Origin: Escherichia coli
GTDB taxonomy: Bacteria; Pseudomonadota; Gammaproteobacteria; Enterobacterales; Enterobacteriaceae
Length of the DNA stretch: 64,000 bases
NCBI RefSeq assembly: GCF_017348835.2
Contig: NZ_CP071375.1
Strand: one strand, 5' to 3'
Shown here piece after piece: positions 40,501-43,500 of this stretch. How positions within the stretch are numbered: the stretch's first letter is position 1; the number at the start of each line of letters is the position of its first letter. The position numbers are program-made.

Positions 40501-43500
40501 GAATTAGCCGATGCGAGAGCTGAAAATGAAACTCTGCGTGCTGATGTTGCCGCTGGTCGTAAGCGCCTGCGCATCAACGCCAACTGTCCAGGCTCCTTGC
40601 GTAAAGCCCCCATCACCTCCGGCGTGGATAATGCAACCGGTCCCCGACTGGCAGAAGCCGCTGAACGGGATTATTTCATCCTCAGAGAACGGCTGATGGC
40701 AATGCAGAAGCAACTGGAAGGAGCACAGGAATATATCCGTACCCAGTGTATACCGTGATGTTTTGTTATGAAGGTGTTACTGGTAACGTTAAGGTAATTT
40801 AACAAAGAGTCAGTTCCGGACTTTATAGTGTGCTCAGTTCATGGCCAAAAACGATTTCTGTGATAAATATTTTGAATATTATTTACAGGTAAATGGAGTG
40901 GGGCGCATGGATAGAAATATTACAATAGAGTATGAAGTATATGCCCGTATTGTATGGGCAGAGAAGGCAAAAACACGGTAATTCCGTGTGTTGCCATGAT
41001 ACCTGATTGGCAGAATAGTTGTTTGGTTTTGAGTATATAGTCAGCGTTTTTTGTTCAGTAATTGCCCCCTCAAAAAATAATAAAATAAGGTGATTATTTT
41101 TGTTTATTATTTAGTTTTTTTTGTGTGTTATTTTATTGTTTTTGCGTGGTTTGTTTTTTATTGTTATTTCATTAAGGGAAGGTAAATTCAGGATGGCAGT
41201 CTGTAGATAATCGGAGGTCACTTATGCTACATGATCACGTGGCAGAATGTCTGGAGAAAAAAGGACTGTACCGGAGAGCAGCTGAACGATGGGCAAAAGT
41301 GATGGTACAGCTAAGTGATGACCAGAAAAGAAAAGTGGCGGCACAGAAACGAGCAGAGTGTTTGCGTAAGGCGCGCCGGACTCCGGTTTCACCGGTGAAC
41401 CTGACCGAAATAAAACAAGCGGTCAACAGACTACATTCTGAGTTGGGAATGGGATTTGAAGAGCGGCGGGTATTCCGACGATATAAAGGGACAGGAGAAC
41501 AGAATACGTCCGGAAACGCGCGGTCAAAAAAATGCTAAAAAATATCTGAGAGAGTTATTGCCTGTTACCATAAGAAAAAGCGACTTTAGTGGTCGCTTTT
41601 TGTGTCATATATAAGTCGTTTAAGTAAACCTGTCTGAACAGGTGCTCTGGTCGTGTTTGTCTTTGTTGGGTACAAATTGAGAATATTTTTCATTAATTAA
41701 TCTTCTTCTGCAGGCTTCAATAACCCACGCTGAAAAATTACCTGAACCTTTCAGGTCAAGAGCGATGTTAATTTGTTCAATTATCTGGTTTGGAAATCGG
41801 ATGTTGCGGGTTGTTGTTCTGCGGGTTCTGTTCTTTGATGACATAATGTTGCCCCGTATTCAGTGTTGCTGATTTGTATTATCTGAAGTTGCTTTTACGC
41901 TAATTTGATGCAGATCAATTAATACGATACCTGCGTAATAATTGATTATTTCTCGTGGTTTGATGGCGTACACACATGTCGTGATAAACCTCATGTAGAT
42001 GATAATTATTATCATTTTCGTGGGTCCTTTCCGGCGATCCGACAGGTTACGGGGCGGCGACCTCGCGGGTTTTCGCTATTTATGAAAATTTTCCGGGATC
42101 CATGTCCGGTTTCTCTTCAAGTTAACTATATGAAAAATATAAAAACAGGTCTTCTGTGAACCGGACATGAACAAAAAACAGACATGTAAACCGGACATGA
42201 CCGGTTTTGTTGTGATTGTGAGGTGAGAGTTTTTGCGAGGTGAGGAGTGGCTACGCAGACTGAAGTTGCCAGGCATTTAAGTCTGACCGATCGCCAGCTT
42301 CGCAGATTGCAGAAATTGCCGGGTGCCCCGATATCGAATAAGCGAGGGCAACTGGATCTGGATGCCTGGCGCGATTTTTACATATCGTATCTGAGGAGAA
42401 GTAAAAACGATGTGCCTGATGGCGATAGCGAAGACGACTATGAGGAGAAATTGCTTATTGCCAGATGGGAACTGACAGCAGAACAGGCTGTTACACAGCA
42501 GTTAAAAAATGAGGTGTCAAAAGGAAAACTTATTGACACCGGGTTCTGTATTTTTGCCCTCAGTAAGCTGGCAATGGCGTTATCCAGTACGCTTGATTCC
42601 ATCCCTTTATCCATGCAGCGACAGTTTCCTGATTTAACACCGCGCCATCTTGACCATCTGAAAACCCTTATTGCTAAGGGGGCAAATCAGTGTGCGCGGG
42701 CAGGGGATAAATTACCGGATTTACTCGATGAATATATCAGAGCAACAACTGAATAATATGATGGCTGCCGTTTCGGTTGCGCTGCAGCCTCTGGTCAGGG
42801 TTGTACCAATGACGGCAGTTGAATGGGCTGATCAAAATTATTATCTGCCTAAAGAATCTTCATATGGTGAGGGAGAATGGAAAACGCTGCCATTCCAGAT
42901 CGCCATTATGAACTGTATGGGTAACGACCAGGTTCGCACGGTTAACCTGATTAAATCTGCCCGTGTTGGCTATACAAAGATGTTGCTGGGGGTGGTCGGG
43001 TATTTTATTGAGCATAAATCCCGAAACAGTCTGCTTTTTCAGCCCACGGATTCTGCCGCTGAAGATTTTATGAAGTCTCACGTGGAGGCGACGATTCGGA
43101 ACGTGCCATGCCTGAAAGACCTTTCCCCATGGCTGGGTCGTAAACATCGTGACAATACTCTCACGCTGAAACGCTTTTCATCGGGCGTCGGTTTCTGGTG
43201 CCTGGGCGGCGCTGCCGCCAAAAACTACCGTGAAAAATCCGTGGACGTGGTCTGCTATGACGAACTTTCCTCGTTCGAGCCGGATGTCGAAAAAGAGGGC
43301 TCGCCAACCCTGCTGGGGGATAAGCGTATTGAGGGGTCGGTGTGGCCAAAATCCATTCGCGGCTCGACGCCTAAAATCAAAGGCACCTGCCAGATCGAAA
43401 AAGCCGCTAACGAGTCGGCGCATTTTATGCGTTTTTATGTGCCCTGCCCGCACTGTGGGGAGGCGCAGTATCTGAAATTTGGCGATGAGTCCACGCCTTT

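What the first reader, a model, noticed from the sequence alone, without database searches (positions are those of the whole stretch)
40800..41538. Possible PerC-like regulator preceded by an AT-rich repeat region
Between the lysis genes and cos lies a 104-aa ORF whose N-terminal region (GLYRRAAERWAKVM) resembles PerC-family regulators, which in pathogenic E. coli are prophage-encoded and activate type III secretion regulators. It is preceded by about 200 bp of T-rich direct repeats (41040-41200, reiterated TTTTTGTT / TTATTTT units) that look like a regulated promoter region.
Basis: partly seen in the sequence, partly recalled or inferred. Interest (0 to 1): 0.4.

Follow-up and report, generated by a model that had tools for sequence, protein, structure and literature searches.

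The report
pchA virulence regulator gene on prophage

Summary
ORF 41224-41538 (+, 104 aa) matches Pfam PerC PF06069 over its full length (E 3.8e-44, 149 bits against a cut-off of 22.6). Its product is 100% identical to PchA (ECs_1091) of E. coli O157:H7 Sakai, one residue from PchB and two from PchC.

The gene sits in the moron slot of an Sp4-like lambdoid prophage integrated at yccA. It follows the lysis genes and precedes an exact lambda cosN 12-mer at 42052-42063. It has a GGAGG ribosome-binding site and a strong bidirectional terminator hairpin (41575-41603).

The upstream T-rich tract is real and is the lowest-GC, most T-rich stretch of the 64-kb window. Its "direct repeats" are weak: one 21-nt unit, 2.5 copies, 77% matches. 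The tract is the diversity hot spot of the locus, with nucleotide diversity 0.125 against 0.005 in the CDS across 55 distinct prophage copies. It falls into pchA-, pchB- and pchC-type alleles. Whether it is promoter DNA or a U-rich leader was not settled here.

The same prophage carries DicF (18058-18109, -), the published translational activator of pchA.

Side lead: the N-terminal three helices of PerC/Pch align in register with ANR (Aar) proteins, which bind H-NS.

Novelty: already known. Interest: low.

The parts
41224..41538 (+). pchA coding sequence (104 aa, PerC family; stop codon included)
   Evidence: Pfam PF06069 E 3.8e-44, full length. Product 100% identical to Sakai PchA ECs_1091, 1 aa from PchB, 2 aa from PchC. 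phrog_994 E 1.4e-45.
41213..41217 (+). Shine-Dalgarno GGAGG, 6 nt before the ATG
   Evidence: Read directly from the sequence. Invariant in the pchA, pchB and pchC copies.
41040..41200 (+). T-rich, low-GC tract upstream of pchA (core 41063-41180); paralogue-specific hypervariable regulatory region, exact role inferred
   Evidence: GC 24-26%. Most T-rich and lowest-GC stretch of the window. 36% variable columns against 1% in the CDS among 5 copies. Diversity 0.125 against 0.005 over 55 distinct prophage copies, in three allele classes, with a T6-T8 run-length polymorphism at 41115-41122.
41093..41144 (+). Imperfect 21-nt tandem duplication inside the tract
   Evidence: TRF: period 21, 2.5 copies, 77% matches, score 62. 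The repeat finder family D1. Lag-21 self-identity 0.62.
41311..41339 (+). Segment of the CDS carrying AAGUGA/AAGUGG repeats complementary to the SD-to-AUG spacer GGUCACUU (candidate anti-SD), plus a 7-nt match to the DicF 5' end (ACCAGAA, 41322-41328)
   Evidence: Partition-function fold pairs 41217-41223 with 41333-41339 at P 0.34-0.59. Duplex candidates. Cofolding with DicF replaces the 41217-41223: 41333-41339 pairing with a local leader hairpin. These are predictions only.
41575..41603 (.). Bidirectional intrinsic terminator hairpin (AAAAAGCGAC-loop-GTCGCTTTTT) between the convergent genes pchA and ylcI/ynfO
   Evidence: Fold of 41536-41615: -17.3 kcal/mol, z -2.9, 2 of 200 shuffles fold as well. 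Invariant in all copies.
41620..41844 (-). YlcI/YnfO-family (DUF3950) gene convergent with pchA
   Evidence: Pfam DUF3950 E 1.3e-17. NCBIfam YlcI_YnfO_N E 1.6e-8. RefSeq annotation.
42052..42063 (+). cosN cohesive-end sequence, identical to phage lambda
   Evidence: Only exact match in the window. It lies 184 nt upstream of the Nu1-like gene.
40841..40981 (+). 46-aa ORF (phrog_2157) inside the finding's span; doubtful gene
   Evidence: phrog_2157 E 2.3e-37. There is no SD, RefSeq does not annotate it, and codon differences among copies are 9 nonsynonymous to 1 synonymous.
18058..18109 (-). DicF sRNA gene in the same prophage; published trans-activator of pchA translation
   Evidence: Rfam RF00039, 77 bits against a gathering score of 48, E 2.9e-15, full length. 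Function taken from the literature (PMC7769764, PMC7873438, PMC9438474).

Best explanation
This is pchA, the group-1 PerC homologue of enterohaemorrhagic and related attaching-effacing E. coli. It is carried as a moron between the lysis cassette and cos of an Sp4-like lambdoid prophage integrated next to yccA.

What the protein does (shown elsewhere for this exact protein): the small all-helical product activates the LEE1 (ler) promoter and co-activates other LEE and effector promoters by relieving H-NS/StpA/Hha silencing. This turns on the type III secretion system and adherence.

How it is probably controlled (inferred from the anatomy):
- The gene is insulated downstream by a bidirectional terminator.
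- Its GGAGG site can be sequestered by AAGUGA/AAGUGG elements inside its own coding region.
- The prophage's own DicF sRNA can bind next to those elements and free the ribosome-binding site, which is the published DicF mechanism.
- The very AT-rich, T-rich tract just upstream is the cis-regulatory region where paralogue-specific control resides. Published regulators of pchA include LrhA, Lrp/LeuO, ppGpp-DksA and sigma-S, and H-NS-type silencing is also likely there.
- In this window the gene points the same way as the late operon, so Q-antiterminated late transcription during induction should also read through it.
For: Identity:
- Pfam PerC full-length hit, E 3.8e-44.
- 104 of 104 residues identical to Sakai PchA. 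The DNA of 40234-41701 is 98.5% identical to the Sakai pchA locus.
- Window 1-42101 is 99.87% identical to strain PE164 in a single alignment (two further matches are IS copies), and the prophage portion matches Sakai prophage Sp4 at yccA block by block.
- RefSeq names the protein a PerC-family regulator.

Distribution:
- The 861-nt locus occurs in 672 of 5426 complete E. coli genomes, at a median of 3 copies per genome.
- ler/LEE1 occurs in 696 of the same 5426.
- At least four accessions appear in both lists (RM12581, YB14-1, 21B8, RM12522-C8).

Anatomy:
- Lysis genes and cos flank the gene.
- SD. Terminator, z -2.9.
- T-rich tract is the compositional extreme of the window and a diversity hot spot with three allele classes matching pchA, pchB and pchC.
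- DicF lies in the same prophage.
- The SD-to-AUG spacer is predicted to pair with 41333-41339, and cofolding with DicF removes that pairing.

Function from the literature:
- PchABC are required for ler and LEE expression and adherence (PMC4456613, PMC6265319).
- Pch acts by displacing H-NS at LEE1 (PMC4764244).
- DicF activates pchA translation by pairing in the CDS at an anti-SD (PMC7769764, PMC13138055).
- Group-1 pch genes are induced by SOS/prophage induction (PMC6265319).
- LrhA, Lrp/LeuO and sigma-S/NtrC feed into pchA (PMC4456613, PMC10714755).
Against: - The host genome of the window is unknown, so the presence of a LEE target was not verified for this strain. Co-occurrence of pch and ler was inferred from similar genome counts and a few shared accessions, not from a full intersection.
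- No convincing sigma-70 promoter was found inside or just downstream of the tract. The scan gave 2 sites against 3.6 expected by chance, and the best hand-found candidate, TTGTTA-16-TAAATT at 41161-41188, matches only 8 of 12 positions.
- The transcription start site is not known to me, and the primary papers (Nakanishi 2006, Honda 2009, Melson and Kendall 2019) are not in the held library.
- The SD-sequestering pairing has only moderate predicted probability (0.34-0.59), and the leader-plus-CDS fold is not more stable than shuffles (z -1.0).
- The long DicF:pchA duplex is not better than chance (rank 35 of 736 window segments).
- H-NS binding to the tract was not documented in anything I could read.
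Confidence: 0.92

Rival explanations
1. The T-rich tract is not promoter or operator DNA but the body of a long U-rich 5' untranslated leader. It would be transcribed from the promoter-like site TTGCCA-17-AATAGT at 40991-41019, giving a leader of about 195 nt. It would act at the RNA level through Hfq or S1 binding, RNase E sensitivity, or as a platform for sRNAs.
For: The only + strand sigma-70-like match (9 of 12 positions) near the gene lies upstream of the tract. Reviews speak of a pchA 'leader region' structure (PMC7873438). The -35 element TTGCCA is invariant in the paralogues.
Against: The scan found fewer promoter-like sites than expected by chance (2 against 3.6). The -10 element AATAGT is poor and is changed to AATTGT in pchB. 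A functional RNA leader would not be expected to be the most variable segment of the locus, nor to carry 1-nt T-run length polymorphisms. No Rfam family matches the region.
Confidence: 0.2
2. The gene has no meaningful promoter of its own here. It is expressed essentially as a passenger of the Q-antiterminated late operon, so PchA is made mainly on prophage induction, and the T-rich tract is compositional junk left by moron insertion.
For: pchA is co-oriented with the lysis and head genes in this window. Group-1 pch transcripts rise on SOS induction (PMC6265319). No strong promoter match was found.
Against: In Sakai Sp4 the whole lysis-pchA block is inverted relative to the late operon. pchA nevertheless contributes to LEE expression there under non-inducing conditions, and it responds to LrhA, butyrate/Lrp, sigma-S and ppGpp (PMC4456613, PMC10714755). 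The T positions of the tract are conserved while intervening bases vary, which does not look like junk.
Confidence: 0.1
3. The ORF is a PerC-like protein without LEE-activating function, like PchD, PchE or the PICI-encoded PerC-like proteins. Some of these do nothing to LEE1 or even repress it.
For: Family membership alone does not fix the sign of regulation. A PICI PerC-like protein silences LEE1 (PMC11773190), and PchD and PchE have little effect on LEE (PMC6265319).
Against: The protein is residue-for-residue PchA, the paralogue for which LEE1 activation and H-NS displacement were shown (PMC4764244).
Confidence: 0.02
4. The T-rich tract encodes a small hydrophobic peptide (31-aa ORF 41090-41185, MIIFVYYLVFFVCYFIVFAWFVFYCYFIKGR), for example a type I toxin-like membrane peptide.
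For: An open frame exists and its product is extremely hydrophobic.
Against: The GTG start directly abuts AAGG with no spacer. Open frames are expected in A-poor, T-rich DNA. One-nucleotide T-run length variants (T6, T7, T8) and other single-base indels inside the frame among natural copies break the reading frame. No Pfam hit.
Confidence: 0.02

Closest known systems
PchA (ECs_1091) of E. coli O157:H7 Sakai, prophage Sp4
   Same: The protein is identical (104 of 104 aa). The locus DNA is 98.5% identical over 40234-41701. It sits in the same prophage type at the same chromosomal site, next to yccA and tusE.
   Different: In Sakai the lysis-pchA block is inverted and bracketed by IS629 and ISEc8 insertions. 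In the window it is in the uninverted, IS-free arrangement, co-oriented with the late operon. The upstream tract differs at two positions.
PchB (ECs_2182, Sp11) and PchC (ECs_2737, Sp14)
   Same: Both are 104 aa, differ by one (V6L) and two (V6L, V58M) residues, and occupy the same slot between Rz and the terminase genes of lambdoid prophages.
   Different: Their upstream T-rich tracts are distinct alleles, and pchB has a replaced segment at 41075-41100. pchB also has a C-to-T change in the SD-to-AUG spacer. This is consistent with the published differential regulation of PchA and PchB (title of Honda 2009, cited in PMC4456613).
PerC of EPEC E2348/69 (plasmid pMAR2/pEAF, perABC operon)
   Same: Founding member of PF06069. 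It is 47% identical over 87 residues (E 1e-27), shares the N-terminal motif, and also activates LEE1 (PMC4764244).
   Different: PerC is plasmid-borne within the perABC operon and is 89 aa, lacking the C-terminal 15-residue tail. LEE expression in EPEC depends on it only under some conditions (PMC4764244).
ANR family (Aar of EAEC 042; NCBIfam NF033650)
   Same: Both are small, all-helical virulence regulators on mobile elements.
- Pch residues 5-55 align in one register with Aar 12-62 (hhalign E 0.0089).
- 60 of 65 PerC-family members hit the ANR model in that register, the best at E 1.1e-7.
- The predicted helices coincide: Pch H5-13, H16-29, H33-50 against Aar H7-19, H23-35, H40-61, with an offset of 7.
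- Both families act on H-NS silencing (PMC4764244, PMC5570504).
   Different: Pch scores 13.6 bits against the family cut-off of 32, so it is not an ANR member. It is longer and has a fourth helix and a disordered tail. ANRs are anti-activators of AraC-type regulators, whereas Pch is a positive regulator. A physical Pch-H-NS contact has not been shown.
Lambda moron slot between Rz and cos (bor in phage lambda)
   Same: An accessory, host-phenotype gene is inserted between the lysis cassette and cos, with its own terminator and atypical composition. That bor occupies this slot in lambda is from general knowledge of the phage.
   Different: bor is a lipoprotein gene on the opposite strand. Here the cargo is a regulator co-oriented with late transcription.

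Membership tests
PerC family (Pfam PF06069) | Profile match above the curated gathering score, over the whole domain | tested here: met
   149.3 bits against a cut-off of 22.6, E 3.8e-44, residues 1-89 on model positions 1-89 of 90.
PerC family (Pfam PF06069) | Conserved N-terminal signature (D4, A7, L10, E11, G14, R17, R18, A19, A20, R22, W23, C46 in Pch numbering) | tested here: met
   In an alignment of 65 family members, A19 and W23 are invariant and the other ten positions are at least 90% conserved. The window protein carries all of them.
PerC family (Pfam PF06069) | Direct homology to the founding member, EPEC PerC | tested here: met
   BLASTP: 47% identity over 87 aa, E 1e-27, against E2348/69 pMAR2 PerC.
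PerC family (Pfam PF06069) | Activates the LEE1/ler promoter | not testable with these tools
   This is an experimental property. It has been shown for the identical protein PchA in the literature (PMC4764244, PMC4456613).
Group-1 Pch (PchA/B/C) of EHEC | 104 aa and near-identity to Sakai PchA, PchB and PchC | tested here: met
   0, 1 and 2 residue differences respectively.
Group-1 Pch (PchA/B/C) of EHEC | Located on a lambdoid prophage between the lysis genes and the terminase genes; for pchA specifically, on the Sp4-type prophage at yccA | tested here: met
Group-1 Pch (PchA/B/C) of EHEC | Host carries the LEE, the target of the regulator | tested here: inconclusive
   The window does not include the LEE and its host is unknown. 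The locus is in 672 and ler in 696 of 5426 complete genomes, with several shared accessions. No full intersection was computed.
Group-1 Pch (PchA/B/C) of EHEC | Cis anti-SD element in the CDS relieved by DicF | tested here: inconclusive
   Candidate pairings were found, and DicF is present in the same prophage. Predicted probabilities are moderate, the long duplex is not beyond chance, and the primary paper could not be read.
ANR family (NCBIfam NF033650) | Score at or above the curated cut-off (32 bits) | tested here: not met
   13.6 bits, E 0.046 for the window protein. The best PerC-family member reaches 31.6 bits.
ANR family (NCBIfam NF033650) | Small three-helix protein of about 39-80 aa | tested here: not met
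   Pch is 104 aa with four predicted helices and a disordered tail. The size range is from PMC4038620.
ANR family (NCBIfam NF033650) | Binds AraC-type activators and H-NS by protein-protein contact | not testable with these tools
   Shown for Aar (PMC5570504). Unknown for Pch.
Phage moron | Own transcription terminator | tested here: met
   Hairpin 41575-41603, z -2.9.
Phage moron | Own promoter active in the lysogen | tested here: inconclusive
   Only weak consensus matches were found. Regulated expression without induction is reported in the literature (PMC4456613).

The most novel reading that the evidence does not exclude
The PerC/Pch N-terminal three-helix domain may be a single TPR-like helical unit, distantly homologous to the ANR anti-activators such as Aar. 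If so, Pch would de-silence LEE1 chiefly by binding H-NS-family proteins directly, as Aar does, rather than by recognising DNA itself. That would explain why Pch has no DNA-binding fold and why its ChIP sites lie inside H-NS-bound regions.

A secondary reading is that the hypervariable T-rich tract is a swappable regulatory cassette that gives each pch paralogue its own inputs.
Probability: 0.3. Interest if true: 0.45.

Novelty: already known. Interest (0 to 1): 0.12.

Why it matters
pchA is one of the master switches of EHEC virulence. Together with pchB and pchC it is needed for ler expression, type III secretion and adherence, and it links prophage content to the expression of a separate pathogenicity island. 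Finding it marks the window's host as an attaching-effacing-type E. coli, or a strain carrying prophages from such strains. This is useful for annotation and risk typing, but it adds nothing new to biology.

Two by-products deserve a small follow-up:
- Sequence diversity at pch loci is concentrated about 25-fold in the upstream T-rich tract, in three discrete alleles.
- PerC/Pch aligns in register with the ANR family, which points to direct H-NS binding as the unsolved mechanism of Pch.

Tried and rejected
1. Long DicF:pchA duplex. duplexfold gave -47.7 kcal/mol and cofolding predicted 41 intermolecular pairs. Controls showed this is not unusual: z -2.7 against shuffled DicF, and rank 35 of 736 equal-length window segments. 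Only the short 5' seed is kept, as a candidate.
2. Minus-strand small RNA from 41075 to 40960. It has a promoter-like site at 41106-41077 and a terminator-like hairpin at 40989-40973, and it folds with z -3.3. The hairpin carries disrupting substitutions in the pchB and pchC copies without compensation, and there is no Rfam match. Left as unexplained and weak.
3. The 46-aa ORF 40841-40981 as a real gene. It has a strong PHROG hit, but no SD, no RefSeq annotation, and 9 nonsynonymous to 1 synonymous codon differences. Doubtful.
4. The 31-aa hydrophobic ORF in the tract. Rejected because natural single-base indels break the frame.
5. Phased T-tracts or curvature. T-run spacings are irregular (18, 16-24 and 15 nt) and only a lag-21 signal is present. 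Not claimed.
7. PADLOC: no defence-system hit.
8. Promoter consensus scan: no more hits than chance.
9. Literature gaps. Melson and Kendall 2019 is not held. A search for the pchA promoter or transcription start gave nothing usable. The supplements of PMC4764244 hold no H-NS data for the pch loci.
10. hhalign of the PerC profile against the single Aar sequence gave nothing. It reached E 0.0089 only with an 8-sequence ANR alignment.
11. The afdb50 fold library was unavailable.
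Full report
**Observation.** ORF 41224-41538 on the + strand starts with ATG, encodes 104 aa, and carries GLYRRAAERWAKVM at residues 14-27. A GGAGG Shine-Dalgarno lies six nt upstream of the ATG. A lysozyme gene (39422-39955) and Rz/Rz1 (ending at 40758) lie upstream. The exact lambda cohesive-end 12-mer GGGCGGCGACCT, the only perfect match in the window, is at 42052-42063, just before a Nu1-like small terminase gene at 42247. The gene therefore does sit between the lysis genes and cos.

The stretch 41040-41200 has 24-26% GC and strong T excess. It contains the most T-rich and lowest-GC 120-nt windows of the whole 64 kb.

The "direct repeats" are weaker than stated:
- One 21-nt unit, 2.5 copies, 77% matches, at 41093-41144.
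- Short TTATT and TTGTT units about three-fold over composition-matched shuffles.

**Identity.** Pfam PerC (PF06069) matches over the full length at E 3.8e-44, 149 bits against a gathering score of 22.6, and PHROGs agrees. I fetched the three pch loci of O157:H7 Sakai. The window protein is identical to PchA (ECs_1091), one residue from PchB and two from PchC, and the DNA of 40234-41701 is 98.5% identical to the Sakai pchA locus. It is 47% identical (E 1e-27) to the family founder, PerC of EPEC E2348/69 plasmid pMAR2. RefSeq annotates the same protein, WP_001303878.1, as a PerC-family regulator. The 861-nt locus is present in 672 of 5426 complete E. coli genomes at a median of three copies, in O157:H7, O55:H7, O145:H28, O103 and similar strains. 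ler/LEE1 is present in 696 of the same 5426, and several accessions appear in both lists.

**Context.** Window 1-42101 is 99.87% identical to strain PE164 in a single alignment. Its prophage portion matches Sakai prophage Sp4 block by block; Sp4 is integrated beside yccA and tusE. This is therefore the pchA orthologue in an Sp4-type lambdoid prophage. In Sakai the lysis-pchA block is inverted between IS629 and ISEc8 insertions. The window has the uninverted form, co-oriented with the late operon. Downstream, a hairpin flanked by an A-run and a T-run (41575-41603, -17.3 kcal/mol, z -2.9) separates pchA from a convergent YlcI/YnfO gene. The arrangement is that of a classical moron.

**The T-rich tract.**
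- Among the window, the three Sakai paralogues and an O55:H7 copy, 36% of columns vary in 41063-41180, against 1% in the CDS and 2-7% in the other flanking segments.
- I extended this to 78 IMG/VR prophage loci (55 distinct sequences). Nucleotide diversity is 0.125 in the tract, 0.005 in the CDS and about 0.02 beside it.
- The variants fall into three discrete classes that correspond to pchA, pchB and pchC, plus one recombinant. A T-run at 41115-41122 varies between T6 and T8.
- T positions are largely kept while the bases between them change.

This fits a cis-regulatory region that differs between paralogues, in line with the published differential regulation of PchA and PchB by LrhA and the inputs of Lrp/LeuO, ppGpp and sigma-S (PMC4456613, PMC10714755). 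I could not show where transcription starts. The consensus scan finds no more promoter-like sites than chance, and the primary papers are not in the library. A long U-rich leader starting near 41026 remains a rival reading.

**Post-transcriptional layer.** Rfam finds a full-length DicF gene at 18058-18109 (-) in the same prophage. Reviews of Melson and Kendall 2019 state that the pchA ribosome-binding site is sequestered by an anti-SD element in its own coding region, and that DicF pairs there to activate translation under low oxygen (PMC7769764, PMC7873438, PMC9438474, PMC13138055). In this sequence the spacer GGUCACUU (41217-41223) is predicted to pair with AAGUGGC at 41333-41339 at P 0.34-0.59. 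Similar AAGUGA elements lie at 41312-41318. The DicF 5' end UUCUGGU matches ACCAGAA at 41322-41328. These are predictions. A much longer DicF duplex suggested by cofolding is not better than chance.

**Mechanism of the protein.** For the identical protein, the literature shows three things. PchABC are needed for ler and LEE expression and for adherence. Activation of LEE1 depends entirely on prior silencing by H-NS/StpA/Hha/YdgT. Pch lowers H-NS occupancy at LEE1 in vivo and in a reconstituted complex (PMC4764244, PMC4456613, PMC6265319). Group-1 pch genes are also induced by SOS (PMC6265319). That fits the co-orientation with the late operon seen here.

The link to the ANR family rests on four results:
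- 60 of the 65 PerC-family members hit the NCBIfam ANR model (NF033650) in one and the same register, residues about 7-51 on model positions 8-52 of 54. The best is E 1.1e-7 at 31.6 bits, just under the 32-bit cut-off. EPEC PerC scores E 0.0017 and the window protein E 0.046.
- A profile-profile comparison with eight ANR proteins, including Aar, gives the same register at E 0.0089.
- The predicted Aar helices (7-19, 23-35, 40-61) coincide with those of Pch at the alignment offset of 7.
- Aar binds H-NS directly (PMC5570504). One 2025 paper noticed ANR hits for a PICI PerC-like protein that represses LEE1 (PMC11773190).

Pch is not an ANR member, because it fails the cut-off and the size criterion. 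The two families are probably distantly related, which makes direct H-NS binding a testable mechanism for Pch.

**Verdict.** Interest is low (0.12). The most novel reading not excluded concerns the family, not this locus. It is an ANR-like, TPR-like protein-interaction mechanism for Pch/PerC, together with a paralogue-specific hypervariable regulatory tract (probability about 0.3).

Noticed in passing
window 18058-18109 (-): A full-length DicF sRNA gene (Rfam 77 bits) lies in the early-left region of the same prophage, next to dicB. The prophage therefore carries both pchA and its published translational activator. This copy has A where I recall the K-12 sequence having G at the eleventh base (recalled from memory, not checked against a K-12 record).
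   Followed up: partly
window 38206-41701 against L003 (Sakai Sp4) 26697-23203: The lysis-pchA block is inverted in Sakai Sp4, bracketed by IS629 and ISEc8. It is uninverted and IS-free in the window and in strain PE164. pchA is therefore co-oriented with late transcription here but not in the reference strain.
   Followed up: partly
window 41063-41180; 78 IMG/VR loci L010-L089: Sequence diversity at pch loci is concentrated about 25-fold in the T-rich tract, in three discrete alleles (pchA-, pchB- and pchC-type) plus one recombinant. A T-run at 41115-41122 varies between T6 and T8.
   Followed up: yes
[not shown]
   Followed up: partly
window 40841-40981 (+): A 46-aa ORF matches phrog_2157 (E 2e-37) and stays open in all copies examined. 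It has no SD, is not annotated in RefSeq, and shows 9 nonsynonymous to 1 synonymous codon differences. It is probably not a real gene.
   Followed up: yes
window 40960-41075 (-): A minus-strand RNA candidate with a promoter-like site at 41106-41077 and a terminator-like hairpin at 40989-40973 folds with z -3.3. The hairpin is disrupted without compensation in the pchB and pchC copies, and there is no Rfam match.
   Followed up: partly
window 20160-20276 (-) and 28368-28484 (+); IS copies about 19302-20611 and 28033-29342: Two copies of an IS3-family element, each with an ALIL frameshift pseudoknot, lie in opposite orientation inside the prophage early region. They could mediate an inversion of the roughly 7.4 kb between them.
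   Followed up: no
window 29489-29655 (+), 35490-35736 (+), 35816-36006 (+): A sok antitoxin RNA (hok/sok-type module), a cluster of three tRNA genes downstream of the Q region, and the sRNA STnc100 all reached Rfam gathering scores.
   Followed up: no
window 41620-41844 (-): A YlcI/YnfO (DUF3950) gene is convergent with pchA and shares the bidirectional terminator. Its function is unknown. It has a faint PADLOC hit to a type II methyltransferase model (E 0.0026), probably meaningless.
   Followed up: no
E. coli genome collection: The pch locus occurs in 672 and ler/LEE1 in 696 of 5426 complete E. coli genomes. Fifteen of the 1879 pch places are on plasmid records.
   Followed up: partly
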